A stretch of DNA of 64,000 nucleotides from contig NC_059427.1 of the NCBI RefSeq assembly GCF_021028975.2, positions 159,650,001-159,714,000 on the forward strand. Reading direction: 5' to 3'. The position numbers and the translations under genes are program-made. Shown here piece after piece: positions 22,211 through 63,462 of the stretch; within the stretch, counting starts at the first letter, position 1; every line of letters starts with the position of its first letter. This stretch comes from Sphaerodactylus townsendi. Taxonomy: Eukaryota. The notes under the pieces are model-generated. The model was not told where the DNA came from. It did no database searches and worked only from the letters and a program-made list of their open reading frames with translations.

Positions 22211-22545
22211 TGGTTGTTGTGGGTTTTCCAGGCTGCATGGCCGTGGTCTGGTAGATCTTGTTCCTAACGTTTCGCCTGCATCTGTGGCTGGCATCTTCAG
22301 AGGTGTATCACAGAGGGAAGTCTGTTCTACACTGTGTCCAGTGTATAACAGACTTATCTCTGTGTCAGTGTATAACAGATTCCTCTCTCTGTCTGTTATA
22401 CACTGGATATCTCTCTGTGATACACCTCTGAAGATGCCAGCCACAGATGCAGGCGAAACGCTAGGAACAAGAACTACCGGACCACGGCCACAAAAGCCCA
22501 GAAAACCCACAGCTAGTTGAATCCGGCCATGAAAACCTTTCACAA
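22211..22545. mobile_element. Inverted pair of Penelope-derived terminal repeats
   Basis: The left arm is the reverse complement of the right arm; each contains a hammerhead-like motif. Confidence 0.8.
22262..22304 (-). ncRNA. Minimal type-I hammerhead ribozyme motif
   Basis: acct-CTGAAGA-t-gccagc-cacagat-gcaggc-GAAAC-GTT-agga. Confidence 0.6.
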
Positions 22546-24113
22546 TGCAAAAGCAAGAATAATTACAAAACAAAAAAATGTATAATAAAAGAAAAATAAA
22601 GATAAAACACAATTAAAAATTACGGTAATTTCAAGTATGAAATTTGCAACATTTTCACAAAAGAGGTGTTCAGGAGATAGGGAATGTTGTAACACTCGTG
22701 CCATTGAGAACACTGCAGAAAAATGGAATTCATATGTTTCATCCATATTTTATATTTGGTCAAGTGTTTCGACTTGGTCAAGTGTTTCGACAGTAACCAA
22801 ATCACAAGAACAAAGCCTTTTAGAACATTCCATATGTTTAAATCTCTCATCCAAGAGAACTGATGGCAACACACAATATTAACATATAGCATAAAATAAA
22901 TGTTTCCCCAACTAAAAATAAAATATATGGACCCTCAGACCCTTTCAATCCACGTTTCCAATGTATCTGAGCTAGAATCGGACATATCTTTTGCAAAATT
23001 CAATCATACTATTTTGTTCCATATAGTCTTAGAGCAAATCTTTGAGACTGCCAGTGCAAAAAGGCCAACCCTATAAAGGACATAAAAGATTCCGAGTCCG
23101 AGAGGAGGAGATATATTTTATCTGCATCAGAATACATCTGGGGCATGAATATAAAGCTGAGAAGGAACTTGGCCCTTGGCTCATACAGGGGGCAGTTCAA
23201 CACTCTACGTCATGCCTGCAAATACAAATTTGCTGCTCCAATGGTGTTTGAGCGTATCTGCCTTCTAAATACTTTGTTGGCATTGACCAAAAACGTAATG
23301 CTGTCAGAGCCTTTCTTATATTATATTGAGTTATGCCAACAAGATAAGGGGCTCTATAACGGTCTTTTTTTGATGAGGCTGTACCAAGGGGCAAACTTGG
23401 AATGCAGGAATCTTCACAGAGAATCTGTGGCACTACACCAAATGGTGGGCGTCACTGGGAAACTGACAAGACCTCCATGTTGCAGGCAGGGGAAAAAGTT
23501 CGCTTTGGTTGGCAACGCTTGTGTTCTCCCACACTGTGGAAAAAGATCTTTTCATAACATCCTCAAGCCATTGTAGTTATGGTGTGCATAATCCACCACA
23601 GAGGGGCGAGGGCGTGCACAGAGGTGGCGGGGCTGGGGAATCGCTCTGCCCGAGACCTTGGAGAACAGCGACCACCCAGCACCAGCAGCAGCCCCTCCTA
23701 AACTGGGTCCGACCATCCGTCTCCACCCACGCCCAGCAATGCTCTTTTGCAGTTGCGCAATGGTTCGAGCCCAGCCCCTGCCAGTCAAGGTTTCCTAGGG
23801 ATCCCCCACCCAACTGCTTCCAGTTGCATCTGGCTGCAACGTGCTCCGGGGGAACGGTGCTTGGGTGGCTAGGGGGCGGGCGGGGGTCGTGCAGGGAGAT
23901 CTGACTGTTGCAATAGAAGCAAAGGGGGCACTCCTGGTTGTTATGGAGGGGTGCACCAGTGGGATGCCCAAGCGGCGACCCCTCCCCTTCTCCCGGGGGT
24001 CGCCGTGGTCTCTCGCTGGCCCTTTAAGTCCCGCCGGGGTCACGTGGGCAGGGCGAAGCGCAGCGATGCCGCCGCCGCCGCGGCGGAGGGGAGGGGGCGG
24101 CTCCCCCCGAACG

Positions 24114-24295
24114 CGTGGTCGTGCCCGATTGGCCGGGCGTAGCGACCAATGGACGGCGGCCATCTGGGACGCCAACGTTCCGGGGTACCGCCTTGCGCGC
24201 CGTGCCGCGGCCGGGCCAATGGGGGCGCGCGTGCGAGCCGAGGCAGCCAATAAGAGCGCGGCGGGGAGGGCGCACCGCGGGGGCCCGCTATAAAA
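24114..24295 (+). promoter_or_regulatory. CALR: CALR promoter: ERSE, CCAAT boxes, TATA box
   Basis: CGTGG-N9-ATTGG at 24114-24132 is a perfect reverse ERSE; CCAAT-N9-CCATC from 24146; CCAAT at 24216 and 24247; TATAAAA 24289-24295; CpG island. Confidence 0.9.
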
Positions 24296-24389
24296 GGGCG
24301 GCGAACCCGCCTGCCGGGCTGCAGTCGCTGGGGGTGTCCCACCGAGAAGAGAGGGAGGCTGTCGCCCGTACCCCGCTAGAGGAAGGAAA

Positions 24390-24480
24390 ATGAGCCCCGT
24401 CCTGTCATTGTTTTTTTGCCTCCTGGGCCTGGCCTCGGCCGGCCCCGCCACCTATTTCCGGGAGGAGTTCGGAGACGGAG
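24390..24480 (+). CDS. CALR: Calreticulin exon 1 (signal peptide)
   Basis: MSPVLSLFFCLLGLASAGPATYFREEFGDG, 91 nt, donor gtgagg. Confidence 0.95.
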
Positions 24481-26048: not shown

Positions 26049-26179
26049 CCGTGGTGGCGAACCTTTGGCACTCCAGATGTTATGGACTACAATTCCCATC
26101 AGCCAATTGGCCATGCTGGCAGGGGCTGATGGGAATTGTAGTCCATAACATCTGGAGTGCCAAAGGTTCGTCACCACTG
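26049..26179. mobile_element. Palindromic 131-bp hAT MITE
   Basis: TSD ccctaaac on both sides; near-perfect hairpin. Confidence 0.85.
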
Positions 26180-31094: not shown

Positions 31095-32840
31095 GTAACA
31101 ATGGTTTCAGTTGTGTATTCCCTGAATTTCTTTACAGTCTTTTCAGTGACTCAGATCACCTCCCCTTAACTTTTTGAAAAATAAAATTGCCAGACAAAAA
31201 CGGGAGGGTGGCATCCATCCTTTCAGATGAAATGGTGGCCTGGGTGGTGTTGTGGTTAAGAGCCATGGACTCTAAACTGGAGAACTGGGTTTTGCTTTCC
31301 TGCTGCTCCACATGAAGCCTGTTGGGTGACCTTGGCCTAGTCCAGTGGTGGCGAACCTTTGGCACTCCAGATGTTATGGACTACAATTCCCATCAGCCCC
31401 TGCCAGCATGGCCAGCAGGGGCTGATGGGAGGCTGAATCCATAACATCTTAACATCCTGGAGGTGGGGTCCTCCTGAGCTAATCACAATTCTTCAGAGCT
31501 CTCATCAGCCCCACCTACCTCTGGAGGTGTCTGTTATGCAGGAGGCAGGAGGCGTTCTTAAGCTCTAGTTCAAAAATAGAAAAGTGGGATATTAACAAAG
31601 CCTCTCTTCCTCCGCTGGTGAGGTCCTGTGACTCTCCAGGTGTTCATGGTCACAGTCCATCCCAGCCCACATGCTGCTCAGGGGGCTGAGTTATGTTTCC
31701 CTGGAGGCATGACCCTATTCAGGGTATGTGTTCATCAGATTGTGCTCTTTTTTTCAGCTGCAAGGTTCATAGGCAAACCTACAGACATAACTAGATGAAA
31801 GTCTACTTGGTAGCCTCTGAGGGATGTTTGGTACAGAAAGGGCAGGGGTGCCAAGCTGTCATTAGCTTGACCATTCAGGCTCTGTCCCTGAACTGGATTT
31901 CAAACTTCCATATAAAACTGTGGATGTTTCTGGCTGAATTGAATTGGGAGTGTTTGGTTGGTAGTTGTTAGAAGAACAATGCATGCTCAAGAAACAGAAA
32001 CAGTTTGTTGGATGCCTTGGTAAGGTGAGAACTAGTGTCCTTGTACAAGATAGTTCTGAGGATCTTTGTAGAATGAGGTGTCTGTCCTGAAGAACCATGA
32101 AGACGAGTTGGAACGGATGCAAAAGAGCCGCTGTAGCAAACTGCAGCCAGTTAGAGGCTCTGCAGTAGGGAGCTCGTGTTGGGGGGCAGTTTTGAAGTAT
32201 CCTTATTATGGCTTTGGGCCGTAATTGAACAGACTGGAGATCAGAAGTGTGGAGTCGAACTAGGAGCAGAGTATAGGGTGGATCCTGCTTCCTTTACTGT
32301 TGTTGAGAAGCGAAGATCAGCCCTGAAAGTTACACTGCATATCAGGGGAACCTGTACAGATAAAAGTCGTAGGGGAGAGAGGGTGTCGTTAGGACATTGA
32401 GCAAGTTTTGAGTGGAAATGCCAGTTGAAGCCACCCTAATACCTTAGTTCCTTTGTCCTGTGCTTTGGTGCAGCGCTTGACGTACAGAAAATTCCTCCCC
32501 ACCCCTGGCAGCCATTTCTGACCCTGGGAAAATTCATTGCCCAGTATTGCAGGACACACATGGGTTGGTGGTTGCAGGTAGAAGCAGGAAAGGAAATGAA
32601 GTGACCCTTCTGTCTCTCTGAGAGTGTGTGTGGTGGAATTATATTAGTATTCCCTTCAGTTAATGCTAAACATGTGTTGGAAGCTGTATCGGAGCCACAT
32701 GCTATGACGGTGGACTTTTCTGTTCGTTTTTTTCATATGCTTGAGCTTAACAAATGTCTAGTTTATTACAAGTCAGGTGAGCTTGTGAGCCATTTGTAGT
32801 ACCTTTTTGATTTCACACTTCATACGTTTCGGCTTCCCAG

Positions 32841-34143: not shown

Positions 34144-34738
34144 CTCTAGTTCAACTGAACTCTTAACTGGACACCTTAGCAAAATCATAATTAAATGCTG
34201 TTGCACAATATATTTATCATTGCGCCGAACAGCATAATGGCTTGACTGTTGTGGTGCTGCCTTTTGAATACTGTCTCTGATCCAGAACACAGGAGTTCAG
34301 CTGATCTTTGGAGTTAATTGACAAAACCTTTATAATGATGTTGAAAATGTTTAAAGCACATTGTGACTCTCCTGTTCAATCCAGGGCAATTTCCAAAAGA
34401 AAGGTGTACAGAGACCTGCATGGCAGAGGGTTAGATTTAATGGTCCTTGGGGTCTCTTCCAACAGTACGATTCTATGAGACTGGCCATTGTGGTTTTTCT
34501 GCGCTGTATGGCCATAGTCTGGTAGTGTTAGCTCTTACCATTTCACCCACAGGCTAAAACTTATCAGACCACAGTCATTCAGCCCAGAAAAACCACCATA
34601 GCCACTTGATTCCACCTGTGAAAACCTTCAACGATACAATGAAGTACAGAGAATTGCTATGTAGGCCCAAAAGACTCAGGGCAATGTGTTTTGCCCATCG
34701 GAAGAGTCAGCGCTGTGTCCTGTCTTAGTCTACTAGAC

Positions 34739-36626: not shown

Positions 36627-36923
36627 TTCTAGAGTGAGCTGTGGGTTGTAGAAGAAGGTGGTGGATAAAATAACCTGCCAATAGTGAGAGTAGAAGTAGG
36701 ATTATATGTACTCTTAAGATGCCAGCCACAGATGCAGGCAAAACATTAGGAGAAAATGCTACTGAAACATGGCCATACAACCCAGAAAACCCACAACACC
36801 CTAGTGATTTCGGCTGTGAAAGCCTTCGACAATACATAGGATTATGTATTGTATGGAAAGCTGTAGGAACTGTTCAGGACATGGTAGGGAGCTGGGAATT
36901 CACTGTTCTTCCTGTTGCTTCAG

Positions 36924-39720: not shown

Positions 39721-39782
39721 GTTGTTGTGGGGGCCCCGCCGAGTCCGTTGGGAGGAACCGCCAGTTGCCCCCCCCCCCCGCC

Positions 39783-39854: not shown

Positions 39855-40204
39855 GTGAGAGGCCCGGGCTGGGCGGAGGAGGCACTGCCGCCCTCCGGGA
39901 GACACGGTTGCGGGGGGGGGGGGGGAGGAAAGGGGGTGTCAGTCGACCAGGCTCCCCGCCTCGCCTTCGTGCGCTGGACCGCCTCCCTTTCAGTCTGTTG
40001 GTCCTTTCCTGTTATTACCCCTCCCCAAAAAAGATGGAGGGAAGGGTCTTGCCATAATGCGGGGGCGGGCAGGAGCCCCCTCTGCGGAGCCACCGGTTGA
40101 TCTGCCCGCGAAGGCTGCCGCCCTCCGTTCCCATGGAGAAAAGGACCCCTTCCGAGAGCAGCCCCGCAGGTTGGAGATGGGATTGGTGTTGTGGGTGGGT
40201 CCAT

Positions 40205-40545
40205 TCCGGGTTTTCCGGGCTGTATGGACGTGTTCCAGTAGCATTTTCTCCTGACGTTTCGCTTCATCTGTGGCTGGCATCATCAGAAGATCTGATGGTA
40301 GTAAAGCAAGTGGAGTATATCTACCTGCGGAATGCCCAGGGTGGGAGAAAGAATTACTTGCATTGGTTGAAAGTGTTAAGGGTGCAACACTCCACTTGCT
40401 TTACTACCATCAGATCCTCTGAAGATGCCAGCCACAGATGCAGGCGAATATTATGAGAAAATGCTACTGGAACAAGGCCATACAACCTGGGAAACCCACA
40501 ACACTCTAGTAATTCTGGCCGTGAAAGCCTTCAGCAATACATTGT
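40205..40545. mobile_element. Inverted pair of Penelope-derived repeats; the - strand hammerhead motif at 40249-40290 has an intact core
   Basis: tctt-CTGATGA-tgccagccacagatgaagc-GAAAC-GTC-agga; the + arm core is mutated (GAATA). Confidence 0.75.
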
Positions 40546-46477: not shown

Positions 46478-46575
46478 GTATGGCTGGGCACTTCTCTTCA
46501 TAACAAAGCTGCTTGGAGGCAGGAAGGTGGCCGTGCTGAGCTGTCTCCCCTTGCCGTGTCCAGAGGACTTCCTAG

Positions 46576-48867: not shown

Positions 48868-48898
48868 GGGGGGGGGGGGGGGGGGGGGGGGGGTGGGT

Positions 48899-48958
<60 letters not shown>

Positions 48959-49278
48959 GGTGGGGGGGGGGGGGGTTTGGGGGGGGGGGGGGGGTGGGAG
49001 GGGGAGGGGGTGGGGGGGGGGGGGGGTGGGGGGGAGGGGGGGGTGGGGGGGGGGGGGGGTGGGGGGGGGGGGGGGGGTGGTGGGGGGGGGTGGGGGGGGG
49101 GGCGGGGGGAGGGGGGGGGGTGGTGGGGGGGGGGTGCGGGGGGGGGNNNNNNNNNNNNNNNNNNNNNNNNNNNNNNNNNNNNNNNNNNNNNNNNNNNNNN
49201 NNNNNNNNNNNNNNNNNNNNNNNNNNNNNNNNNNNNNNNNNNNNNNNNNNNNNNNNNNNNNNNNNNNNNNNNNNNNNN
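48868..49278. other. Poly-G run plus N gap (assembly break)
   Basis: About 280 nt of near-homopolymer G directly before the Ns. Confidence 0.9.
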
Positions 49279-49504
49279 NGGAGAGCCACAGGTTGCAGAC
49301 CCCTGCCTGGAGAAAATGGCTGATTTGGAGGGGAACTGTAGGACACCATAGTCTGCTGAGGTTCCTTCCCAAGCCCTCCCATCCTAAAACTCCGTTCCCT
49401 AATCTCCCAAGAATTTCCTAAGACACAGTTGGCAACATTACCCTCCCCACGGATATCCGTCCCCTCTCTAAACACTGCCTTGTTCATGGACTACAAATCC
49501 CATC

Positions 49505-49804
49505 AGCAGCAGTGGCGTAGGAGGTCAAGAGCTCATGTATCTAATCTGGAGGAACCGGGTTTGATTCCCAGCTCTGCCCCCTGAGCTGTGGAGGCTTATC
49601 TGGGGAATTCAGATTAGCCTGTGCACTCCCATACACACCAGCTGGGTAACCTTGGGCTAGTCACAGCTTCTCAGAGCTCTCTCAGCCCCACCTACCTCAC
49701 AGGGTGTGTGTTGTGAGGGGGGAAGGGCAAGGAGATTTTCAGCCCCTTTGAGTCTCCTGCAGGAGAGAAAGGGGGGATATAAATCCAAACTCTTCTTCTT
49801 CTTC
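49505..49804 (+). mobile_element. Squam3-type SINE
   Basis: Full consensus match. Confidence 0.85.
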
Positions 49805-50264
49805 CCCAGCTCCAACCCAAATCTCCAGGAATTTCTCTACCCAGAGTTTGAAACCCTAAGGTTAACGTCAGCGTGTGCTTAATGTCTGGGGCCTCTTTGG
49901 CTTTTAATCTCTCCATTAATTTCTTCTTTCTCTCTGTGCTTGCAATTGCAGATAACAGTGTATTCACTGGCCTTCTCCGGGAAGGGAGGGGTAGAGTCAG
50001 GGTCTGCAACCAATTGGCCATGCTGGCAAGGGCTGATGGGAATTGTAGTCCGTGAACATCTGAAGAGCCGCAGGTTGCAGACCTCTGCCTTAGACCTTGG
50101 GAAAGGACTTTCGCTTTCCTCCACTTTTCCCGCTTTTACTTTGCGAAGTTGGGGGCACGGGAGGGAGTGACCAACAGAGGTAATAAATGTATTGTCGAAG
50201 GCTTTCACAGCCGGAATCACTGGGGTGCTGTGTGGTTTCCGGGCTGTATGACCATGCTCTAGCA

Positions 50265-50641
50265 CAGTGATGGTGAACCTTTTCGAGACCGAGTGCCCAA
50301 ATTGCAACCCAAAACCCACTTATTTATCGCAAAGTGCCAACACGGCAATTTAACCTAAATACTGAGGTTTCAGTTTAGAAAAAATGGTTGGCTCTATGGC
50401 ACGTGTTACTCGGAAGTAAGCTTGGTGAAGTAACCGTGCAACACTTCGAACGGGTGAATCACAACCCTAGGAGGGTTTACTCAGAAGCAAGCCCCATTGC
50501 CAGCAACTGAGCTTACTCCCAGGTAAAGGATCACGCTTTAGTTCTTCTCAGCCCCCACATGACAAACTCTGTGCATGCGTGCCCACAGAGAGGGCTCTGA
50601 GTGCCACCTCTGGCACCCGTGCCATAGGTTCGCCACCACTG
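50265..50641. mobile_element. hAT MITE inserted in a Penelope-derived repeat
   Basis: TSD ctctagca/ttctagca. Confidence 0.85.
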
Positions 50642-50657
50642 TTCTAGCAGCATTCTC

Positions 50658-50700
50658 TCCTGACGTTTCGCCTGCATCTGTGGCTGGCATCTTCAGAAGA
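50658..50700 (-). ncRNA. Minimal hammerhead ribozyme motif (intact core)
   Basis: tctt-CTGAAGA-t-gccagc-cacagat-gcaggc-GAAAC-GTC-agga. Confidence 0.65.
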
Positions 50701-50722
50701 CCTGATAGGATCATCTATCAGA

Positions 50723-50764
50723 TCCTCTGAAGATGCCAGCCACAGATGCAGCGAAACGTCAGGA
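50723..50764 (+). ncRNA. Minimal hammerhead ribozyme motif (inverted partner)
   Basis: tcct-CTGAAGA-tgccagccacagatgcagc-GAAAC-GTC-agga, with 1 nt lost in stem II. Confidence 0.55.
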
Positions 50765-51437
50765 GAGAATGCTGCTAGAACACGGCCATACAGCCCGGAA
50801 GCCACACAGCACCCCAGAGGTAATAAAGCTACAGGCATTTGGGGATTTGGGTCAGAACTGGCTTTGCAAAAGCCAGGGGTTCAATGTTCGCTCCAGTGGA
50901 CTTTGGATTGAGGAAATCCTGAATCTGTCACTGAATGAATCATAGACCTGACAACTAACCCCATTTCCTAGTTCTCCTCTATCAGCACATAACTCCTTGG
51001 CAAAAACCCTCTGGAGTCTACAAGAGCTACCTGGTATGTCCAGCTGAGTACTCAGACGGCAAAGAAGTATAGCCACGTCATTCCGCTGACTTGCGTGATA
51101 TAGTTCCAGACCAGTCAAGGGGATTCTGTGACCGGGGCGGGTGAGGAACAGACTGGCTGCTGAGGCGTTGTGTGGAGGATGCGGACCCCCGCTTCAGATG
51201 CAGCACGGCCTCCCTTGCCCTGCTGACAATCCCAATCCCACCTCCTCCCAAGCAGCTCCAGTGCCGTCCAGCGCCAGGCCATGCAGCCCTCGCTCCAAAT
51301 GATCCTCGGGCCACCCTAAACCACAGGCCCCACTTCTGGCCAGGAGACGGTGCTGTGCCATGCCCCCAGTGGAGAGTGGAAGGGCCTTCCTCTCCTGGCC
51401 TGCCCCTCCTCCTCCTCTCCCAGCCCAGCATTTTTAC

Positions 51438-51602
51438 CCTTTCGATGGCTTCTTTTTCCTGAGGCGTGACTTGGATGTAATTCATCTGAGGCGCTTCTTC
51501 CCCAATGGCGCCCATCTCTCCTTCTATGTCTGCAACGTCGGCCATTTCGCCCAAGGGTTCGTTGAGCATCTGGATGAACTGTTCTTGATGCTGGCTGATT
51601 TG
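51438..51602 (-). CDS. RAD23A: RAD23A exon 8
   Basis: [55 protein letters not shown], 165 nt. Confidence 0.96.
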
Positions 51603-52406
51603 CTGGAGGAGGAGGAAGAGGAGGAGGAGTGGTCTGTATGTCTCTGAAGCACCCTCTCTCTCTTACTCACCCACACACCACGCTCCGTTCCTTCTCTTGT
51701 CACAATATCACAAAGTAACACAGATCTGCTTTCAAGGAAAAAACTTAAAATGATGGCAGGAAGGCTCCTGGGTGGGTCCAAAAATCCGCCCTGCCCGGCC
51801 TTCCCATCGGCATCCTCGCCAGGTTCTCTAGTTTTCTCTAGAAGTCAGGGCTGGAGTTTGCCCTTGTCTGGTTCAGGCAAGCCAGTATGCTGCAGTGGCC
51901 ACGGTTATGACCTCTCAGACTAGGGTTCAAAAATACATCCTCTGCCCTGATGCTCGTGGGTGACTTTGGGCTGGCCACGATCAGCCTCACTCACTTGAGA
52001 GCCCAGATGGCACAGAGGTGAGAGTGTCGGACTAGGATCCGGGGGTCCCGGGGCCAGTCACGCTTTCTCAGCCTAGCCTACCTCACAGGGTTGTTGAGAG
52101 GATAAAATGGAAAGGAGGAGAACGACGGCAGCTGCACTGCAGGGGAAGGCAGGGCACAAATGCCACAAATAAATGCAAACGCGCAGGAATGTTGTGAGGG
52201 TAAAACAGGAGGGAAAGGGTCACGTACACGACCTTGAGCTCTGGGCAGAAAGAACAGGATCACGCCCAATCTGTGCAAAAACACCAGGCAAAGGCAAGAC
52301 GACTTGACTTTGGCCTCCACGGCAGTTCCAGCACTGCCTCCAGACACCTGAAATGCTGAGCAGACCCTGCAGCCCGCCCGCCCAGCCCCCCGCCCCAGTC
52401 ATTCAC

Positions 52407-52537
52407 CTGCAGCAGCTGAGGGTTTTCTTGGCCTAACTGCTGGAGCAGAGCAGGGAGCAGAGCCGGGTTCTGTTGGATCACCTGCCGCATGTTCTGGAAC
52501 TGGGGCTGGTCTCGTAGAAATTCAAGAGGATTCTCTC
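52407..52537 (-). CDS. RAD23A: RAD23A exon 7 (XPC-binding/STI1 domain)
   Basis: (G)[43 protein letters not shown], 131 nt. Confidence 0.97.
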
Positions 52538-52786
52538 CTGTAGGGCCCAGGTGGCGTTAAGAGCCAATGCATCCAGCAGGAGTCCACATTATCCTGAAGC
52601 ATCACACCTCCACCCCATTTGCCAAAGCAAAGTGGAAATGAACCGGGGGGGGGGGGGGGATGGAGCACAGGCGGGGGTGAGCAAGGGAAGGTATTCTCCA
52701 GTTGCTGGAATCCCAGCAGTCACTGGCGCTTAACTCTCTCCCCCATTCAAAACTACCGGCACGGAAGTGAGGGAAAGGCCACCCAC

Positions 52787-52862
52787 CTTCTGGGGCTGAC
52801 TGCTCTTGGGACTGGCTCTCCTGCAGGGGAGTGCTCTCTGGTTCCGGACTGTCTGGGATTCC
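52787..52862 (-). CDS. RAD23A: RAD23A exon 6
   Basis: GIPDSPEPESTPLQESQSQEQSAPE, 76 nt, phases consistent with neighbours. Confidence 0.9.
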
Positions 52863-54392
52863 CTGCAATGGCAAGAGAAGCAGAGGTGATGGAATCATTT
52901 CCGTCTTGGGTGCTTTCCAAGGCTTCCCCCCCTCCCCCGACACATTTCGACTGATCAAATGACCAGCCGGCTGGTGTGAATTGACCCGGGCGAGCAGGAT
53001 CTATGCCCTGCTGCAGAAATTCCATAGGGCAGGGGTGTGCAACCTGCAGCTCTCCAGATGTTCATGGACTACGATTCCCATCAGCCCCTGCCACCATGGC
53101 CAAGTGGCAGGGCTGGTGGGAATTGTAGCCCATGAACATCTGGAGAGCCACAGGTTGCACACCCCTGCTATAGGGAGTGTGTGTGTGTGCGTGCGCATGC
53201 CCGCTGTTGGATGCAGAAATTTGTTGGAACACGTTTTATACCCATTCACGTAAATCCAAACAAGTGGGGGACACCTCATTTTCCCTCCCTCATTACTTCC
53301 TGTCTCTCTGAAAGCTCCCAAAGGTTCTGCCACCTTTTCCTGCTCCCTTTCCCACCCACCAACCAATCTAACTTTATCTGCACTGCCGCGCCCACCCACC
53401 GCCTTCAGCTTCCCCTTCTTCCCTCCCCTTGGCAGCCTCTACCAATGAAAAGGCTGGCCCAGTAACACTGTGTCAGCCTGGCTGTTGGGCTGGGCCCAGA
53501 TGCGCAGAGTCTGACCCTCTAACTACTGTACCACACTGACTTCTGTGTGGTGGCTGTCGATGAACAGTAAGCAGCAAGCAGTTCGGGCCATGGCAAATCA
53601 TGCAAGTTGCAGGTTGGCAGCTTGCCCTCTGCTTGGTCCCATGCCTCACCTCATTAAGTCCTTTTTCAAAGGCCAAAACCAACCTGGAGAGTGCCCTGCT
53701 CTTCCCCCCACTTTTTACTAACAGAGCCAAGGCTTGAGGACTGGCAATACTGTGACGATTGCCTAGCACCTGCCACTGAGGTCATTCACTTCTTAAAGCT
53801 ACAAGCGGTGCTTCTACTCTTTTTCGGGGGGGGGGGGGGGGGCCCCCTCCAGTGTACTTTTATTGAGATTTCAGGTTTTCTGCAAACCTGGGACTTTTCT
53901 CAGGCTTGTAGAAAGCTGTTTGTTTGCCCAAGGTCCCAGTCTCTAGATTTAAGTATCCACGGAGCTCTCCAGTACAGGTTCCTCCCACCCCACCCACACA
54001 CTTCTCTACCAGTATTTCTGTGATCCAAGCACAAAGATCACAGACAGGCATCACATTTCTTATTAATGTAAGTTTACTGGAGGTTGGATCAAGCATCGAC
54101 CATCCCCTTTTCTCCTGAAAGGGCACTAACCCCACAGGAAGGCCAGCTGAGTCCCTGCATTCCTGGGACCAGAAGTGAAATACACAAGGACCTGGAGTAA
54201 TAAAAAAATGGCTAATGGAAAGTCAGGCAAGCAAAGAGGTATTCTTGCATTTACTAGGCACTAATTCTTCATTCAGATTGGAATGTTTTCTTAACTGATG
54301 TTTTTAATGTATTGTCGAAGGCTTTCACGGCCGGAATCACTTGGGTGCTGTGTGGTTTCCGGGCTGTAGGGCCGTGTTCTAGCAGCATTCTC

Positions 54393-54435
54393 TCCTGACG
54401 TTTCACCTGAATCTGTGGCTGGCATCTTCAGAGGA
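54393..54435 (-). ncRNA. Minimal hammerhead ribozyme motif in a Penelope-derived repeat (54305-54435)
   Basis: tcct-CTGAAGA-tgccagccacagattcaggt-GAAAC-GTC-agga. Confidence 0.6.
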
Positions 54436-55014
54436 CCAAATCACACCACTGGCCCTTTCAGCTGGGGTTTGGCTTCTCTTGGCAGGCAGGTTGGTCTTTC
54501 CACATGTTACTGTCAGGTAGTGAGTGGCAGCCTGGCCTGGATGCCAAACCTCTGGAAACTCACCGTGCAAAAAGGAACAGCAGCAGCACCCAGCGAGCAA
54601 ATCTGAGCCAGCTCAAGGGGAGGCAAGACAGTGGCACGCACTCACGCACAGCCAGCTCCTTCCTGGGCTCAAGCGTGCGGATGCATTTGCATTTATTTAG
54701 TTCTCCCCAGCTGGGAGTCAAAGCAGCACAGGACATCTTTCCTCTCCCATTTTCTCACAACAACCCAGTGAGATAGACCAGGCTCAGAATTTTTGATAGG
54801 CCTAAGGTCAACTTCTGTGGTAGAAGTGGGAATTTGAACACTAGTGGCCCACGGTCCCAGTCTGCCACTCATGTCCACTACTCCATACTGAAGAGCCTGG
54901 GAAGTCCTGCAAGGAGCTGTATGAGCTCCGGAGGCCCTTCCTCTCTCCCAGTCTGCAATGCGGCCTGCTCTGCAAGGCTGGTTGCAGCAGCTGCAAGACT
55001 GGAGAGACAAGAAG

Positions 55015-55990
55015 AATCATAGAGTTGGAAGAGACCCCAAGGGCCATCAAGTCCAACCCCCTGCAATGCAGGAACACACAATCCAAGCGCTCCTGAATGA
55101 TGGTCATCCAGCCTCTCTTTGAAAAGAAGGAGACTCCACCACACTCCGAGGTAGTGAATTCCACTGTCCTCGTAGGGCATGGATTCCAGACCCGTTACCA
55201 TTTTGGTTGCCTGGCTGTGCTGGCCCTGTCTGGCTGTGCTGGTCAGTCTAGGCTGTGACATTTCCATAGTCAGGTGCATAGAATCATAGAGCTGGAAGAG
55301 ACCACAAGGGCCATCAAGTCCAAATCCCTGCAATGCAGGAACACACAATCAAAGCACTCCTGAAAGAAGGCCATCCAGCCTCTCTTTAAAAACCTCCAAA
55401 GGAGGAGACTCCACCACACTCCGAGGAAGTGAATTCCACTTTCAAACAGCTTTTACTGTCAGGAAATTTTTCCTGATGTTTTGGTGGAATCTCTTTTTCT
55501 TCACCTTAAACCGATGTCTCCTGGTCCTAGTCTCTGAAGCAGCAGAAAACAAGCTTGCTCCCTCACCGACATGACATCCCTTCAAATATCTAAACATGCC
55601 TATCATGTCGCCTCTTAACCTTCTCTTCCTCAAACTAAACATCCCCAGCTCCCTAAGTCTCTCCTCATAGGGCATGGATTCCAGACCTTTGACCATTTTG
55701 GTTGCCCTCCTCTGGACCCGTTCCAGCGTGTCAATGTCCTTCCTGAATTGCGGTGCCCAGAACTGCACACAATATTCCTGCACACAATAACCAATGTAGG
55801 TTCAATTACATTCCTCGATCTAGACACAATATTGCTATTTATACAGCCTGGAATCGCACTGGCTTTCTAGCCCGCCGCATCACACTGCTGACTCATGTTA
55901 AGTTTGTGGTCTGCTAAGACTCCCAGATCCCTTTCACATGTAGTGCTGTCAAGCCAGGTGTCACTCATCCTATATTTGTGCATTTCATTT
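55015..55990 (-). mobile_element. CR1 LINE 3' fragments (two copies)
   Basis: [49 protein letters not shown]. Confidence 0.9.
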
Positions 55991-56233
55991 TTTGTGTGTT
56001 CCTGCATTGAAGGGGGTTGGACTTGATGGCCCTTGGGGTCTCTTCCAACTCTATGATTCTATGCTATGATTCTATCCCATTACCTTGCTGAGTCCGGTAC
56101 CCAAATATTCAGCCCCGACTTACTGCCAAGAACTCATCTTGCCCATCTGCAGGTGGCGAAACATGACCCTCCAAGCTATGCCAGCAGGAAGGATGTACCA
56201 GTCATTGCCATACCTATTTCAATGCTAGCCTTA

Positions 56234-56531
56234 AGAAGAAGAGTTTGGATTTATATCCCCCCTTTCTCTCCTGCAGGAGACTCAAAGGGGCTTACAATCT
56301 CCTTTCCCTCCCCCCCCCCACAACAAACACCCTGTGAGGTGGGTGGGGATGAGAGAGCTCCGAGAAGCTGTGACTAGCCCAAGGTCACCCAGCTGGCGTG
56401 GGTGGGAGTGTACAGGCTAATCTGAATTCCCCAGATAAGCCTCCACAGCTCAGGCGGCAGAGCTGGGAATCAAACCCGGTTCCTCCAGATTAGATACACG
56501 AGCTCTTAAACTCCTACGCCACTGCTGCTCC
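56234..56531 (-). mobile_element. Squam3-type SINE
   Basis: Full consensus match in reverse complement. Confidence 0.85.
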
Positions 56532-56608
56532 TTTCTGGGTGTGACCCAGAAAGCACGTCGCCACGCCTGTTTCAAATCACCAAAGCAAGAGGAAGGGACA
56601 CAGAATTA

Positions 56609-56977
<369 letters not shown>

Positions 56978-57713
56978 CTAAGACACCACCCTGGGAAGTT
57001 CTGGGGCCCCAATCTTTAAGAGCCACCAAGAGCCAGAAGCAGAATTTAGAAGTCAAACTCTCCAGCACCCCGCACTACAAGGGTGGCTTTGCATCTCCAA
57101 ACCCCAGGAAGACCACCATGTCTAAAGGAACCAGAATCTGGCTGCTAAACCTTGTAGACTTCCCTTCTGAGGGGGGAGATGGGGCAATTGGGATTCCGGA
57201 GCTCTAGCCACTAGATTTCTTACAGAGACGAAGCAACAACTCACAACTGCAGCGTCAGAGCCTGCTGCTTTTGCGGTGGGGCCCCCAAAACACAAGCAGG
57301 CTCAGTGCAAGCACGCTGCCCCAAACATGCCTCAGTCCTAAGGCAGAAAACTCAGCAACAGTGAAGACTGGGGCCTGAACAAAAAACCCCAGGACGGCTC
57401 CCAGCATAAGCCCCATGGTTAGCAGAGACTTTGGTTCAGCTGGACTCTTCAGCCTGGTCGTTTTAAATCCCAGTCTTCCCCGTGGAGCTCACTGAATTTC
57501 TTTACCAAGCAGGTTCAACTTTCTCCTCCTGTGTCCCCATCCCTAAAACAACAGAAAACGGTAGCACCACCTCTCCAGTAAACACAGCCCACCTGTGAGT
57601 CCCAAGCTGAAAACCAGTGACCCACAGCATGCTAGATGGCTCTGTATCCGTCAAACAGAAGTAGATGTGTTTTGACCAGCAGCAGCCACTAGAGGGCAGC
57701 AGCAGCATCCAAT

Positions 57714-58012
57714 GAAGAAGAAGAGCTGGAGTTATATCCCCCCCCTTCTCTTCTGTAAGGAGACTCAAAGACTCAAAGTTTTACGAACTCCTTTCCCTTC
57801 CCGCCCTCACAACAAACACCCCGTGAGGTGGGTGGGGCTGAGAGAGCTCCAAAGAGAACTGTGACTAGCCCGAGGTCACCCAGCTGGCGTGTGTTGGAGT
57901 GCACAAGCTAATCTGGTTCACCAGATAAGCCTCCACAGCTCAAGTGGCAGAGCGGGGAATCAAACCCGGTTCTCCAGATTAGAGTGCACCTGCCCTTAAC
58001 CACTACACCACC
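57714..58012 (-). mobile_element. Squam3-type SINE
   Basis: Consensus match in reverse complement. Confidence 0.8.
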
Positions 58013-58183
58013 CTGAACCTTAGTGAACCTGGGAAGCCGGCTAAAGGTGGGTTCGGGGGCGGGGGGGGGGGGCACCCAACAGTTACCAATCAGAGCTGAG
58101 GCAAAGGGGGAGGGTGGCCCACTGCAGCCAAGCAGTGCTGAGCACTCTTCACGGCGACCTGTGAGGGAAAGGCTCTCACCTAC

Positions 58184-58239
58184 CTAAGGTAGAGGCTGCG
58201 TCATCTTCGCGTCCCATGCTACCTGAAGAGGGAACAGAG
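58184..58239 (-). CDS. RAD23A: RAD23A exon 4
   Basis: SVPSSGSMGREDDAASTL, 56 nt, AG/GT. Confidence 0.93.
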
Positions 58240-58975
58240 CTGCGAATTTAAGAGAGAGAAATAGTAGCTGGGTACTTCCAGATCACTGGCCAAGAAAACT
58301 GAAAGAGCAGCTGATTTCCCCTTCAGAGTCACAGCTCCTCTTGGGCTCCCGTGGCTCACCACGAGCTGGTGGCTCTCGGCATGGCCACAACTGGGGGGCT
58401 TCCATTGCAGAATGCTCCTGGGGGGTGGGGGAAGGGGGACAGAGGGATTCCAGGTACTAAGCTAGGAGGCAGGCATGGTCCCAAGAGGACAGCTGACCCC
58501 CAAACTGTGTGCTCCCCCCCCCCGCCGCCCCTTTTTTGCACTTCATCATACCCAATCCCAAGAAAAAAACCCTGGCTGCCCTCAAAAGGTCCCTCACGGA
58601 CCACGGAGGCAGCCATCTTGTCAAAGCAGGACAAGAAGTTCTGGGGCCATTCAAAGCAGGCCCGCATTTCTGTAGGCACAAAGCCGCACCCAAACCCCTC
58701 CCTCCACGTAGGCTGACTCTTCGGCTGCCTTCCAGTCCCCAAACACAAGGATTTTGCTGCCAGGGCTAATGTCCTGGGATGCGCCCAGCTCGCTTTTGAC
58801 TGGCCACTGAGATGGGAGGCGCCGTCTGTGTCCCGGTCTACGCCTCCGGTTCTGCTTGCTCTGCTGCCCCAGAACAAGCCCTGGTGCCAGAATTGCAGAA
58901 CTGGCTGCCAGGAGCTAAGACACCACCCTGGGAAGCGACGGAGACCTGTTGAGCAGGGGGACAAACAAGACTTAC

Positions 58976-59148
58976 CCAACTGTGGTTTCCAGAGGAGAAA
59001 CGGTCATGGCCTCTTCGGGAGGGGGCTCCTCACTTAAAGGAGCAGTAGCTGCTGCAGGCACCGTGGTCGGCCCAGAGGATGGGGCGGGATCTGCGGGGGG
59101 TGCTGCGTCACTGGGGGATGGAACAGGAGCTCCAGAGCCACTTTTATT
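58976..59148 (-). CDS. RAD23A: RAD23A exon 3 (Pro/Ala/Ser linker)
   Basis: NKSGSGAPVPSPSDAAPPADPAPSSGPTT...PLETTVG, 173 nt, phase 0 to 2, fits exons 2 and 4. Confidence 0.9.
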
Positions 59149-60409
59149 CTGATAGGAAAACCAAAAGGACTCTCAGGAAGGAAGAAGCCACAGAGTTCAG
59201 AAAGTACACCGGATCCCTCTTCAGGGTATTGGGGGAGCAGCCAGAAGACCCGTGGTATCTCTTGAGACCAGCAACAACACCCCGTTGCCCGGGTCAAAGC
59301 CCTGAGATAACATACACAACATCAGAACTAACTTGAAGGCCTGAGAGCAAAATAGAGATGTTCACCCACCTACTCCAGAATTTCTTCCAGTGTTACCTGT
59401 CAGGTCCATGACTGTCAGTGCTTAGATGTCTTGCTGTGTGGGAATTGCAAATGTTTCCTGTAAAGGCTTTCCTGTTTCCCTCTCCCCTCCCTGGCAATTC
59501 CCTGGCGCCAGCCCTCCTGCGGGAAGGTGCGAACGTTCCCAGGTTTCTTGAAGCTCTGTAGTGCAAATGTTATACACTTTGTGAAACACATTTGGTGGGA
59601 ATCAAATGGGGGGGGGGATTGAAGGATATAATCGCTGGATCTAAGCAGGAGAGCTTAGATTCAGCTTTCTTTGTTACTCTACACGTGGTAGAAATAAACT
59701 GCTTTAGGACTTTCCTACGGTCTCTGTTATTTCCACGTTCGAGAGCCTGACAGCACCAGGCACGCAGTGTGGTGTGGCAGGAGGGGGCGAGGCGGGGGCA
59801 CAGGACACAGGCATGCCCCAGGCACAGTTCCCCCTCGCTCTGCCCCTGCCTTCCATGTACCCACACCTGCCATACGTTAATGTGGCTTCCTTGCTTTGAT
59901 TTGTTTCCATGTGCTTAGACATGTAGATAAGTAGGCTGCTTGGTACTCTGGATGGGAGTGGGGAGTAGTGGATCCCGGCAGGAGACTATCGCTGTTCTGG
60001 CCTTTGGACACCTGTCTTTGAAAACAAAGTCTTTCACACCTTGTTTTCTCACATTCTCTGGGAAATTGGGAGGGGGGATTCCAAGGGAGACAAATGGGAA
60101 TAAACATGATTGTAAAAGCCAGGATTGCCAGAACTTTCTGAAACCAAGTCCTTGATGCCAACCCAATAAAGACTACTGATCCTGTACCCAGAGTCCGCTT
60201 ATTGATTGTTGGTCCAAGACCTAACACTTACAGATCGCCAACGTTTTCAGGAGATAAGCTTTCAAGAGCCAAAGAGATGACAAAGGGAGGTTTGATTCTC
60301 AAGAGCTCATACCCTGAAAATCTGGTTGGTCTCTAAGGTGCTACTGGATCTGAATCTAGTCATCTTACTGCAAACCACAGCTACCTTGGAAACTATGGTC
60401 AGATTAAGC

Positions 60410-60813
60410 CAGTGATGGCGAACCTTTTTGAGAGCGAGTGCCCAAATTGCAACCCAAAACCCACTTATTTATCGCAAAGTGCCAATACGGCAATTTAATC
60501 TGAATACTGAGGTTTTAGAAAAAACAGTTGGCTCCGAGGCGCATGTTACTCGGGAGTAAGCTTGGTGAAGCAACCGTGCAATGTTTTGAATGGATGAATC
60601 ACGACCCTAGGAGGGTTTACTCAGAAGCAAGCCCCATTGCCAGCAACTGAGCTTACTCCCAGGTAAAGGATCATGCGCAGGCCAGCCTAGGGGTGTGTGT
60701 GTGTGGGGGGGTGATTTTCTACTCCCCCACATGATGAACTCTGTGCATGCGTGCCCACAGAAAGGGCTCTGCATGTCACCTCTGGCACCCGTGCCATAAG
60801 TTCGCCACCACTG
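60410..60813. mobile_element. hAT MITE
   Basis: TSD gattaagc on both sides. Confidence 0.85.
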
Positions 60814-61942
60814 GATTAAGCCAACTTCGGAAGGGGGGGTGGTCAACCAGAAAATGACTTTTTACACGAAAGCTCAAAATTCAGAAGGGGTGCCATGACA
60901 TCTGCTGACACCTTTCGTGGTACCCAGGTGTTTTTAGAAAGTCGGCAGAGCAAGGTGGGGCTGCTGAACAGCTAGGCTTTGGATGGACCGCTGGAGATTT
61001 GACTGGCTGTGAAGATATTTAAAAATCTTGCTTCAGTAGCAACTGACATCACAGCTCAAGGTGATATTATACCTTTAGTCACAGCACTGTATGGCCAAAG
61101 GTACACCAGAGGCATAGCTCCAAGGGGGCCGGGGGGGATGCACCAGATGCGCACCCCTGTGGGGGTGTGGTGAGGGTGTTCTGTGGGCACGGCGAGGCGT
61201 TCCGGGGGCGGAGGACGCACCGGTGCACCGGGCCCTCTCCCCCCCTTGCTATGCCTCTGAGGTACACTGTGTGTATGCAAAGAAACATTTTTAAACAATA
61301 AGTGGTTCACTTTACCTAGAGTTGCCTGTCAGCAGCTGTTAATTGATGGGGGTCTGGTGGGAAACGTGGGGGGTATCGTTGCCTGATGGCAATTATTTTT
61401 CATTATTTTCCCCCTGCCAGCTGCAGGAACAGCGGGGGAAAATGTGTCCGCAGCAGGACTATGGTAAATCACACTCCAATTTCTGTGGTTGGCAGCCATT
61501 TTGGCAGCCATTTTGTGGCTGTACCCACCAAACTGTGAGAGGATTCCCAAGCTGTCCACAGACTCAAAAAGTCTGGGGACCCTTATAGTGAATCACAGCA
61601 CTAGACAGTTACACTGCTGTGCCACGCAATCTAAAATATGCAGATTTCTTAAGAAGTCTGAAAAAACCCCTCCAATGGTGGTGGGGAAACTGTGCCCTCC
61701 AAAGGCTGAAGCAAGAGAAGGGGTTCAGACATGGATGGGCATCTTCCATTCCCTACAGTGGGCAAAGCCTTTTTATCTGTAACCCAGCCCGAAAGATCTT
61801 ATCACAGCAGGCTTGGGAAATGATAATTTTTTAATAACGGTTTTATATTACTATATTACGTTACTATATTTTATGTTGTTCACTGTCCTGAGCCCTTTGG
61901 GGGAGGGCAGTCTAAAAATCCAAAGTATGTATGTACGGACGT

Positions 61943-62235
61943 ACAGTGATACCTTGAAAATCGACACCTTCGATAATTGTTGATTTCAGTAATCGACGAT
62001 TGCCAGGCGCCGATTTCCGCACTCGAAAATCGTCAGCCGCTTCGATTTTCGGCAGCCGCCGAGGGTACGCAAATGCTGTTGCGCATACCCAAATGCCGTT
62101 GCATGATCTTCGCTAAAGAACTTTAGCATGCGCATAAGCGGCGTTCTCCGATGCGAAAATGCGCAAACGAAAGCTGATCAATCCCTTGAAATACGTCGTT
62201 TCCGGAAATCGCCGATAATCTCCGGACAGATTATC
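61943..62235 (+). mobile_element. Tigger/pogo-like element end, truncated by the N gap
   Basis: TA then cagtgataccttga terminus; CpG-rich, so probably young. Confidence 0.5.
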
Positions 62236-63462
62236 NNNNNNNNNNNNNNNNNNNNNNNNNNNNNNNNNNNNNNNNNNNNNNNNNNNNNNNNNNNNNNNNN
62301 NNNNNNNNNNNNNNNNNNNNNNNNNNNNNNNNNNNNNNNNNNNNNNNNNNNNNNNNNNNNNNNNNNNNNNNNNNGAGTTGATTATATCATATGGACATGC
62401 CAAAGGGGGGGGGGCTGCTCTGCTTTGGATGCCAAACCACATCAAAACCTCAGTGTGGAAGCAACCACTTTTCCAATCAAAGCTGATCCCTAATGCCCCT
62501 GTCAGCAATGAAGAGTAGCAAATTAAGCAACAGGCTAATAATGGGAGGAGGAGGAGACACCGCCTGTACACTTGGCCCATGTAAACCTGATGTTAAAGCC
62601 AAAGGTTAATGGATGCTGAGGCCTGAGTCTCAGGCAGCTTCTATTCATCTTCTGGGTGGGCTGCCTTGTGCGAAGCATTGCCAGAACAAAGTCTGTCTGC
62701 TGACCTGCACATGATTCTCTCTTTCTCCAAAAAGGAAAAATAATCCACAGCTGAGAGGGCAGCTAGAACACAAACTGGGCTACAGAAGGGTTGGAGTGAA
62801 AAGCAGCCCCTTCCCTCTCTGTCTCTCAGGATGCCCCAGGGATACAGAAAATGAGGAACCAATTTTCCTGGACACAGAAAATGAAAGCAGCAACCTGGAA
62901 TGCTCCCCGTTTGCAAATCATCAGCAAACCCTGGAAATCTCTTAGCATAGCTTGTCATGCTGCTCTTTCCCTAAGTCTCCTTCTTGCTGGCAAATGAGGA
63001 TATTTTTCACACGATTGGGGTGTTGTGGGGTTTCAAGGTTGTATGGCTGTGTTCCATGCCGAAGATCCTCTGAAGATGCCAGCTACAGATGAAGGCAAAA
63101 AGTTGGGAGAAAATGCTACTGGAACACGGCCATACAACCCAGAAAACCCACAACACACCAGTGATTCCGGCTGTGAAAGCCTTCAACGATACATTTTCAC
63201 ACAATTGTTCAGCACCAGTCTTTGCTCAGTCTGTGACAGACTTCTCCCTCATGCGTTTGCCCAACCACTACGGCCATCTTTTGAGGCCCTATTTTGGGTT
63301 CCTCCACTTCCTGAGATTAGGTGGGAAGCAACCCAGAAAGGGTTTTCCAGATCAGGGCACCAAAGCTCTGGCACTCTCCAGGGAGATTCACCCATCTCCT
63401 TCAGTGATCCCTCCTTCTTAATCAATGCTTTCATTGCTGTTTTTATATTAGTGTATATTATA

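What the first reader, a model, noticed from the sequence alone, without database searches (positions are those of the whole stretch)
22211..63195. Dispersed family of hammerhead-ribozyme-bearing Penelope-derived mini-elements, often as inverted pairs
Seen: about ten copies of (t)cct-CTGA(A/T)GA-t-GCCaGC-loop-GCaGGC-GAAAC-GT(C/T)-agga. This is stem I, the CUGANGA core, stem II, GAAA, a palindromic ACGU stem III and a GUH cleavage site. Cores are intact at 22262, 40249, 50658, 50723 and 54393. Three loci (22211-22545, 40205-40545, 50188-50820) are short divergent inverted pairs with no ORF. Established: Penelope-like elements carry minimal type-I hammerheads thought to cleave as dimers, and their insertions often have inverted ends. 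Inference: a very high-copy non-autonomous ribozyme retroelement family in this lineage.
Basis: partly seen in the sequence, partly recalled or inferred. Interest (0 to 1): 0.7.

Follow-up and report, generated by a model that had tools for sequence, protein, structure and literature searches.

The report
Truncated Poseidon retrotransposon stubs with hammerheads
These short repeats match the end of a known lizard jumping gene (a Penelope-like element of the Poseidon type), carry its hammerhead ribozyme motif and often sit head to head; they are likely dead insertion stubs rather than a new self-copying ribozyme family, so the finding is ordinary.

Summary
The repeat is real: 13 arms at 8 loci (5 head-to-head pairs, 3 singles); 10 arms cover the hammerhead region, 5 keep every core nucleotide, only 2 also keep stem II. 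It is the 3' end of a Poseidon-clade Penelope-like element: one copy is 106/129 identical (by eye) to the anole element PAc, and its 40 codons match residues 1-40 of the 836-aa anole RT/GIY-YIG protein (27/40). Each pair has one arm ending near +118 and one near +83, the known optional tail, and 4 of 5 pairs sit inside a 13-14-bp target duplication. No RT or nuclease remnant is in the window; 5' ends and junctions all differ; cores decay like neighbouring DNA. Sequencing runs show a very abundant family and, in a relative's RNA, reads that continue into the ORF. In PAc this hammerhead cuts only with the element's protein and is not needed for insertion in vitro; inverted pairs would bury it in a hairpin, so they give no dimer. 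Verdict: truncated insertions of a known kind, not a new mini-element family. The pair anatomy favours priming from both DNA nicks, a modest mechanistic lead.

The parts
16768..16912 (-).
22199..22211 (+). Left copy of a 13-bp target-site duplication (right copy 22548-22560) around the whole 22k pair
   Evidence: 15/16 match, score 13, 0 of 589 random pairs reach it
22212..22333 (-). Short-tail arm of the 22k pair, subfamily B, about -40 to +84
   Evidence: upstream 30 nt match a family loose-end line at 27/30 by eye
22263..22303 (-). Minimal type-I hammerhead motif, full core and stem II; predicted cut after U17 at 22266
22334..22409 (.). Junction patchwork of short pLTR pieces in both orientations
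22410..22547 (+). Long-tail arm of the 22k pair, -24 to +118; core U16.1>C
34483..34557 (-). Short arm of an old pair, about +19 to +75; hammerhead remnant only
34558..34638 (+). Long-tail arm of the old pair, +46 to +118; no hammerhead; no significant target duplication
36711..36836 (+). Single stub, -7 to +119; core G5>U and G12>A; 9-bp duplication at 36697-36705 and 36837-36845
40186..40388 (-). Short-tail arm of the 40k pair, subfamily A, about -108 to +84, the longest pLTR remnant; full core, stem II broken; lies in intron 1 of a RAD23-type gene
   Evidence: pLTR part about 33/47 alike to the PAc UTR printed, by eye
40389..40541 (+). Long-tail arm of the 40k pair, -36 to about +118; core broken; pair flanked by a 14-bp duplication (40171-40184, 40542-40555; 12/14)
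50188..50264 (-). Tail part (+42 to +118) of the long arm of the 50k pair; pair flanked by a 13-bp duplication (50175-50187, 50815-50827; 13/13)
50265..50641 (.). hAT-like non-autonomous DNA transposon inserted later into the long arm (8-bp duplication); not part of the family
   Evidence: the hAT label is inferred from the 8-bp duplication and terminal inverted repeats
50642..50708 (-). Hammerhead part of the long arm of the 50k pair; full core and stem II (50658-50700); predicted cut after C17 at 50662
50715..50814 (+). Short-tail arm of the 50k pair, -18 to about +83; full core, one base lost from stem II
54306..54435 (-). Single stub, -10 to +120; full core, weakened stem II; 54306-54425 encodes the 40-residue ORF start; no target duplication found
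63018..63056 (-). Short arm of the 63k pair, +47 to +83; no hammerhead
63063..63193 (+). Long-tail arm of the 63k pair, about -13 to +118; core broken; pair flanked by a 14-bp duplication (63004-63017, 63194-63207; 13/14)

Best explanation
The repeats match the end of the pseudo-LTR, the hammerhead motif and the first 28-40 codons of a Poseidon-type Penelope-like retrotransposon, and are likely dead stubs left when the element's reverse transcriptase stopped soon after starting at nicked AT-rich DNA. Shown here: homology to PAc, two fixed 3' ends (about +118 and +83), variable 5' ends, 13-14-bp duplications around whole pairs, no RT or nuclease remnant, neutral-looking decay. Taken from the PAc paper: the protein nicks and extends both DNA strands, starts inside its RNA at two sites that define the tail, needs the first 172 ORF nucleotides, and the hammerhead cuts only with the protein and is not needed for insertion in vitro. 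Inferred: staggered nicks 13-14 nt apart each prime a cDNA, one from the +118 site and one from the +83 site; both abort after 40-230 nt and are joined head to head; with one productive priming a single long-tail stub results. The hammerhead rides along because it lies just upstream of the start sites; in the stubs it is likely inert.
For: Copy 54434- against the PAc template printed in PMC11167929: 106/129 identical without gaps, counted by eye; the ATG begins at hammerhead A9 as in PAc. Its 40 codons match P0023 (836 aa, Anolis carolinensis, RVT_1 E 8.9e-14, GVY..YIG motif at 700) residues 1-40 at 27/40, E 1e-16. tblastn of P0023 gives 12 window hits, all starting within residues 1-27 and none past 55. 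5 of 5 pairs have one arm ending at +75 to +86 and one at +118 to +120; 3 of 3 singles end at +119/+120. Reads and contigs of other runs end at +116 to +120 and at +83 with unlike, A/T-rich flanks (table 7); window flanks are 122/180 A+T against 51% overall. Target duplications at 5 of 8 loci. In 3 of 5 pairs (22k, 34.5k, 40k) each arm holds element sequence the other lacks. In run X21, 485 reads go on past +120 with a majority line 26/30 alike to the PAc ORF continuation (by eye). Core and non-core columns depart from the majority equally: 4/100 vs 12/260 outside CpG, 2/10 vs 6/30 in CpG. Inverted 5'-truncated copies and a one-sided 30-40-bp tail are described as typical of PLEs (PMC8557442; PMC3846280).
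Against: No full-length donor was seen in this species: no genome is held, and none of the named proteins among the 120 best relatives of P0023 is from a non-anole reptile. All 13 arms are under 230 nt, which a short ORF-less donor would also give. The ORF continuation was seen for 30 nt only, at agreement 0.44, in one RNA run of a related organism; the other three runs show only its first 4-6 letters. No duplication at 3 of 8 loci. PAc showed no difference in start site between top and bottom strands in vitro, which does not predict the strict long/short pairing. Five pairs is a small sample. The PAc DNA comparison is by eye, not a tool result.
Confidence: 0.82

Rival explanations
1. The stubs come from a short ORF-less donor (pLTR plus about 200 nt of ORF, perhaps in tandem, retrozyme-like) that borrowed the Poseidon protein in trans; the family would then be non-autonomous at its source, though each stub is still dead.
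For: All 13 arms are short and none reaches the ORF's 3' end; very high abundance; no non-anole reptile ORF among the named top hits; pLTR-derived non-autonomous tandem repeats are reported in vertebrates including 4 of 5 reptiles (bioRxiv 10.64898/2026.07.22.740005).
Against: No head-to-tail copies in the window. Strong 5' truncation is normal for PLEs. Reads continuing into the ORF exist, although 30 nt cannot tell a full from a short donor.
Confidence: 0.13
2. The stubs or the inverted pairs themselves are the mobile unit: a self-cleaving mini-element processed by hammerhead dimers and reinserted.
For: Family majority keeps the core and stem II (letters at 54405 and 54410 revert to the paired form in 63% and 94% of X1 depth); whole pairs lie in one target duplication; the family is in RNA reads (7,418 of 16.75 M and 11,510 of 16.16 M records).
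Against: All five junctions differ. No arm starts at the cut site (+30); the truncated ones start at +19, +46, +47. Copies lack +121 to +172, needed by PAc in vitro. Pairs fold into hairpins that bury the motif (z -26, -19, -17). No pile of read starts or ends in either RNA run (table 6; weak, since libraries are fragmented and unstranded). No compensatory changes.
Confidence: 0.04
3. Same identity as the best explanation, but the second arm of a pair is made by fold-back self-priming of the first cDNA (or on an antisense template), as proposed for rotifer Penelope elements, not by priming at the second nick. Confidence is for this step only.
For: PMC3846280 reads palindromes at inverted junctions as self-priming. 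The 50k and 63k pairs are nested or symmetric, the 50k centre is 6 nt, and the 22k junction has pieces in both orientations.
Against: In the 22k, 34.5k and 40k pairs the short-tail arm reaches further 5' than the long-tail arm (72 nt further at 40k), so neither arm can be a copy of the other. Later deletion at the hairpin centre could, however, mimic this.
Confidence: 0.35

Closest known systems
PAc / Poseidon_Ac, Poseidon-clade Penelope-like element of Anolis carolinensis (Frangieh et al. 2024, PMC11167929)
   Same: 106/129 nt by eye over hammerhead and tail; ATG at hammerhead A9; 27/40 residues to the ORF start; same 3' end near +118; AT-rich targets.
   Different: Another squamate; at least two subfamilies in the window (75-82% between, 80-95% within) and a third upstream type in reads; stem II has an A-A mismatch where PAc has U-G; only stubs, no ORF; copies are decayed (arms of a pair 88-97% alike).
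Minimal type-I hammerheads in PLE pseudo-LTRs (Cervera and de la Pena 2014, PMC4209133)
   Same: Core boxes, extra base after A9, G10.1-C11.1, palindromic 15.2-16.2, short helix I; mostly single motifs from truncated PLEs, some close pairs on opposite strands; similar motifs noted in reptiles.
   Different: Higher apparent abundance (order 1e5, rough) than the thousands counted by that paper's descriptor; cleavage of these copies untested.
Inverted pLTR plus one-sided tail structure of EN+ PLEs (PMC8557442 Fig. 2 legend; PMC3846280)
   Same: Head-to-head inverted truncated copy, 30-40-bp tail at one end, short target duplication.
   Different: Here both arms are so truncated that nothing but the two ends remains; duplications 13-14 bp against 8-10 bp in the rotifer examples.
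Non-LTR retrozymes (PMC7229834; bioRxiv 10.64898/2026.07.22.740005)
   Same: ORF-less, type-I hammerhead, PLE pLTR ancestry.
   Different: Those are head-to-tail tandem repeats, mostly with canonical hammerheads, giving circular RNAs; these are dispersed singles and head-to-head pairs with a minimal motif.

Membership tests
5'-truncated insertion of a Poseidon-clade PLE | Sequence homology to a characterised Poseidon element | tested here: met
   27/40 residues to P0023 1-40, E 1e-16; 12 tblastn hits at the stubs; 106/129 nt to PAc by eye
5'-truncated insertion of a Poseidon-clade PLE | 3' end carries hammerhead and ORF start, with an optional 30-40-bp tail at one end only | tested here: met
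   ends at +118-120 or +75-86; one of each in 5 of 5 pairs; same two classes in reads
5'-truncated insertion of a Poseidon-clade PLE | Variable 5' truncation and inverted truncated copy at the 5' end | tested here: met
   5' ends from about -108 to +47; five head-to-head pairs
5'-truncated insertion of a Poseidon-clade PLE | Short target-site duplication | tested here: met
   5 of 8 loci above the 99th percentile of 589 random pairs; boundaries were chosen after seeing the sequence, with the same slack in the null
5'-truncated insertion of a Poseidon-clade PLE | A donor with RT and C-terminal GIY-YIG ORF exists or existed in the lineage | tested here: inconclusive
   30 nt of ORF continuation in 485 reads of a related organism; no genome held; no non-anole reptile ORF among named top hits
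Autonomous full-length PLE | RT plus GIY-YIG ORF in the copy | tested here: not met
   0 of 176 ORFs of 90+ aa match RVT_1 or GIY-YIG; 120 PLE proteins give no tblastn hit beyond the N-terminus
Minimal type-I hammerhead | CUGANGA, GAAA and NUH core | tested here: met
   5 of 10 arms that span the motif; family majority
Minimal type-I hammerhead | Helix I, helix II with G10.1-C11.1, palindromic 15.2-16.2 | tested here: met
   together with a full core in 2 of 10 arms (22303-, 50699-)
Minimal type-I hammerhead | Covariation supporting the helices | tested here: inconclusive
   91% of cells pair, against 21-47% when slid, but 0 of 9 pairs show a change on both sides; copies are closely related
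Minimal type-I hammerhead | Self-cleavage after N17 | not testable with these tools
   homologous PAc motif cleaves only with protein; predicted lowest-energy fold pairs the CUGA core away; no end pile-up in RNA reads
Non-LTR retrozyme | Head-to-tail tandem units each with a hammerhead | tested here: not met
   no two same-strand copies adjacent among 13 arms
Non-LTR retrozyme | Circular RNA from the unit | not testable with these tools
   short fragmented reads only
Self-propagating non-autonomous mini-element | A fixed unit with shared 5' end or junction | tested here: not met
   five different junctions, 5' ends spread over 150 nt; many different joints in contigs (tables 5, 5c)

The most novel reading that the evidence does not exclude
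The ORF-less pairs are a genome-wide fossil record of the unsolved step of Penelope insertion: a dimeric protein makes two nicks 13-14 nt apart and primes two separate cDNAs in a fixed order, one at +118 and one at +83, which then join head to head. With copies on the order of 1e5, tail class, nesting and duplication length could be counted at scale and would decide between two-ended priming and fold-back self-priming.
Probability: 0.4. Interest if true: 0.4.

Novelty: new member of a known kind. Interest (0 to 1): 0.17.

Why it matters
As a ribozyme or element discovery it matters little: the element, its hammerhead and its inverted ends are described, and the anole homologue has been studied biochemically. 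What is usable is the anatomy: one long and one short tail per pair, non-nested arms and 13-14-bp duplications bear on how Penelope-like elements finish an insertion, a step the PAc paper leaves open. The stubs also add long hairpins to host introns (about 2.6% of this window), and they contaminate gene models in squamates.

Tried and rejected
No whole genome is held, so no direct count. Rfam: no hammerhead among 25 matches at E<=1. Exact-pattern scans found nothing in metagenome contigs or viral contigs. The 40-residue peptide alone found no longer protein; among 13 representatives the named ones were host gene models that run through the repeat (caspase-14, caskin-1-like) and P0011 looks unrelated; only the 7-row profile reached the full ORF. 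The Pfam copy used here gave only RVT_1 for P0023; the GIY-YIG call rests on the motif at residue 700 and the paper. The depth step at 54393-54395 lies near the predicted cut site but was rejected as a cleavage sign: it is where subfamily B diverges (loose ends agree 0.88-0.90 with the 22k-type sequence) and it appears in DNA contigs too. Loose ends at 54306 partly follow from the reference ending there; the ends at 54343 do not. X22's 2,140 reads ending at 54310 agree 0.94 and look like one expressed locus, so they were not counted as many insertions. Summed contig depth (1-2e7 against 44-86 on flanks) is not a copy number by the tool's own warning. Dimer energies ignore tertiary contacts and are indicative only. 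Rejected: a retrozyme (no tandem), inverted pairs as hammerhead dimers (opposite strands), selection on the cores. Earlier scan notes near this place or by sequence: none. PMC6050309 and PMC7561263 passages added nothing specific.
Full report
Setting. The window is vertebrate DNA around a RAD23-type gene (ubiquitin, UBA and XPC-binding exons). The repeat's named relatives are from Anolis carolinensis and Sphaerodactylus townsendi, so the host is a squamate; a gecko is a weak inference from the closest peptide (76% against 63-68%). No whole genome is held. Positions written +n or -n count from the A of the element's ATG.

Observation. The strict hammerhead pattern matches 3 times (0.00 expected) and a 17-nt motif 7 times (0.13 expected). 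A profile of six copies gives 24 hits: 14 at 21-131 bits and 10 at 5.2 bits or less, against a best of 6.9 bits in 10 shuffles. The 14 segments are 13 arms at 8 loci, because a 377-nt hAT-like insertion splits one arm: five head-to-head pairs (22k, 34.5k, 40k, 50k, 63k) and three singles (16.8k, 36.7k, 54.4k), about 1.7 kb or 2.6% of the window. Ten arms span the hammerhead. Rfam does not list a hammerhead here.

Identity. PMC11167929 (main text parts 1-3 of 4 read; two supplementary PDFs gave labels only; the GenBank consensus is unreadable here, and Fig. S2, which maps genomic ends, could not be seen) prints the RNA template of PAc, the Poseidon element of the green anole. Copy 54434-54306 aligns to it without gaps at 106 of 129 positions by my count by eye, from -9 to +120, and the ATG starts at hammerhead A9 as that paper states. 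Tool confirmation: 54306-54425 translates to 40 residues; a 7-row profile of such peptides finds P0023, an 836-aa anole protein in a cluster of 49, with RVT_1 and a GVY..YIG motif at residue 700. The window peptide matches its residues 1-40 at 27/40, E 1e-16. tblastn of P0023 gives 12 window hits, all at the stubs and within residues 1-55; 119 further PLE proteins give no hit at E<=1e-3; 0 of 176 low-complexity-filtered ORFs of 90+ aa match RVT_1 or GIY-YIG (one LINE-type zf-RVT hit is unrelated). The 72-nt centre of the 40k pair continues the minus arm into pLTR sequence about 33/47 alike to the PAc UTR (by eye).

Anatomy. Every arm ends at one of two places: +118 to +120 (8 arms) or +75 to +86 (5 arms). 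Each of the 5 pairs has one of each, and all 3 singles are long. [quoted passage not shown] 5' ends range from about -108 to +47 and all junctions differ. Direct repeats of 13-14 bp flank four whole pairs and 9 bp flank one single; three loci have none; the 99th percentile of 589 random pairs scores 7 against 13, 8, 13, 11 and 9. So a pair is one insertion event. In the 22k, 34.5k and 40k pairs each arm holds element sequence the other lacks; the 50k and 63k pairs are symmetric or nested. Arms of a pair are 92/101, 97/107, 66/68 and 35/40 alike (34.5k not measured), so insertions are of different, mostly old, ages.

Beyond the window. Of 23 listed runs four were laid on 54200-54560. 66,388 contigs of X1 and 40,060 of X5 fall on the stub, with summed depth 1-2e7 against 44-86 on the flanks; the tool warns this is no copy number, but it agrees in order with one locus per 8 kb here (1e5 per genome, using a recalled lizard genome size). 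The majority letters restore stem II at 54405 and 54410. G12 and the helix III CpG change in 8-13% of X1 depth, other CpG positions in 8-17%, so there is no sign of selection; within the window core and non-core columns also decay alike. Loose ends fall at +120, +118, +116 and +83 with A/T-rich, mutually unlike flanks (24 rows shown, 793 not shown). Three upstream pLTR types appear, two of them in the window. In RNA run X21 (a related organism holding 52-61% of the query's words), 485 reads continue past +120 with a majority line 26/30 alike to the PAc ORF by eye, at agreement 0.44; the other three runs show only its first letters. RNA reads are 0.04-0.07% of records, unstranded, with no pile of starts or ends.

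The ribozyme. The motif fits the minimal type-I hammerhead of PLE pseudo-LTRs (PMC4209133, parts 1-2 of 4 and supplement part 1 of 3 read), which already notes that most such motifs are single, probably from truncated PLEs, that some lie close together on opposite strands, and that dimers cleave weakly. For PAc, C3G or G8C abolish cleavage, the double mutant partly restores it, cleavage needs the protein, mutants insert normally in vitro, and no RNA-seq reads end at the cut site. Here the two best copies are predicted to fold with the CUGA core paired to the 3' strand; a dimer with the four-pair helix III lies about 17 and 5 kcal/mol above the lowest-energy dimer at 37 C (tertiary contacts ignored). 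A transcript across a pair is one long hairpin (z -26, -19, -17) and holds only one sense motif. No compensatory change is seen in 9 pairs. Activity of these copies is untested and, in the pairs, unlikely.

Mechanism. Shown: homology, two 3' end classes, variable 5' ends, duplications, absence of coding remnants, neutral-looking decay. From PAc biochemistry: nicking and extension of both strands, internal starts, AT-rich targets, a predicted dimer, a need for ORF nucleotides up to +172. Inferred: staggered nicks each prime a cDNA (one at +118, one at +83); both abort early and join head to head; the stubs lack +121 to +172 and so would not serve as templates again. I put 0.82 on 'dead truncated insertions from ORF-bearing Poseidon donors', 0.13 on a short ORF-less donor, 0.04 on self-propagating mini-elements. 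For the pair-forming step I put about 0.4 on two-ended priming, 0.35 on fold-back (PMC3846280's reading) and the rest on mixtures; against two-ended priming in fixed order, PAc showed no strand difference in start site in vitro.

Comparison and novelty. Works like, and files as, truncated Poseidon-clade PLE insertions; not an autonomous element, not a retrozyme (PMC7229834, passages; bioRxiv 10.64898/2026.07.22.740005, parts 1-3 of 5, supplements closed), not a fixed mini-element. PMC8969392 (passages) describes the same structures as routine. I found no paper stating the long+short rule with non-nested arms as evidence of two-ended priming in searches, but PMC8557442 already attributes inverted pLTRs and the tail to endonuclease cleavage properties, and the older Penelope papers it cites (2004-2006) were not read. 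An earlier unchecked note of this scan describes the same kind of stubs in another genome. Verdict: real, abundant, ordinary; interest 0.17.

Noticed in passing
window 39700-59200: A RAD23-type gene appears split in orientation: first exons on + (39784; 46292-46684, ubiquitin) but UBA (56609-56977) and XPC-binding exons (52263-52556, 51081-51662) on -, between N gaps 49147-49279 and 62236-62374, with a long poly-G run before the first gap; likely a mis-oriented scaffold piece.
   Followed up: partly
window 50265-50641; relatives near 19.7k, 30.3k, 33.7k, 36.1k, 44.4k, 60.4k: A hAT-like non-autonomous DNA transposon family with an 8-bp duplication; one copy inserted into a Poseidon arm, so it was active later than that stub.
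   Followed up: partly
window 16923-17759 (+): Broken 3' remnant of a LINE (zf-RVT, E 4e-05, below cut-off; R4/RTE-like by recall) starting about 11 nt from the 5' end of the 16.8k stub; similar text at 20911-21438.
   Followed up: no
window 10.8k, 26075-26153, 31369-31449, 50.0k, 53057-53140: A palindromic repeat that scores against Rfam mir-5408 below its gathering score; looks like a short inverted-repeat transposon family.
   Followed up: no
window 13009-14061: Minisatellite with 66-nt period and open frames on both strands beside an N gap; inverted match to 277-589.
   Followed up: no
proteins P0006, P0002: Annotated squamate gene models (anole caspase-14 isoform X3, gecko caskin-1-like) contain the 40-residue tail peptide, probably from gene prediction running through a stub.
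   Followed up: no
one search hit list: After anoles, the closest named relatives of the anole Poseidon protein are beetle proteins at 56% identity, closer than a fish hit at 38%; a hint of horizontal transfer, not tested.
   Followed up: no
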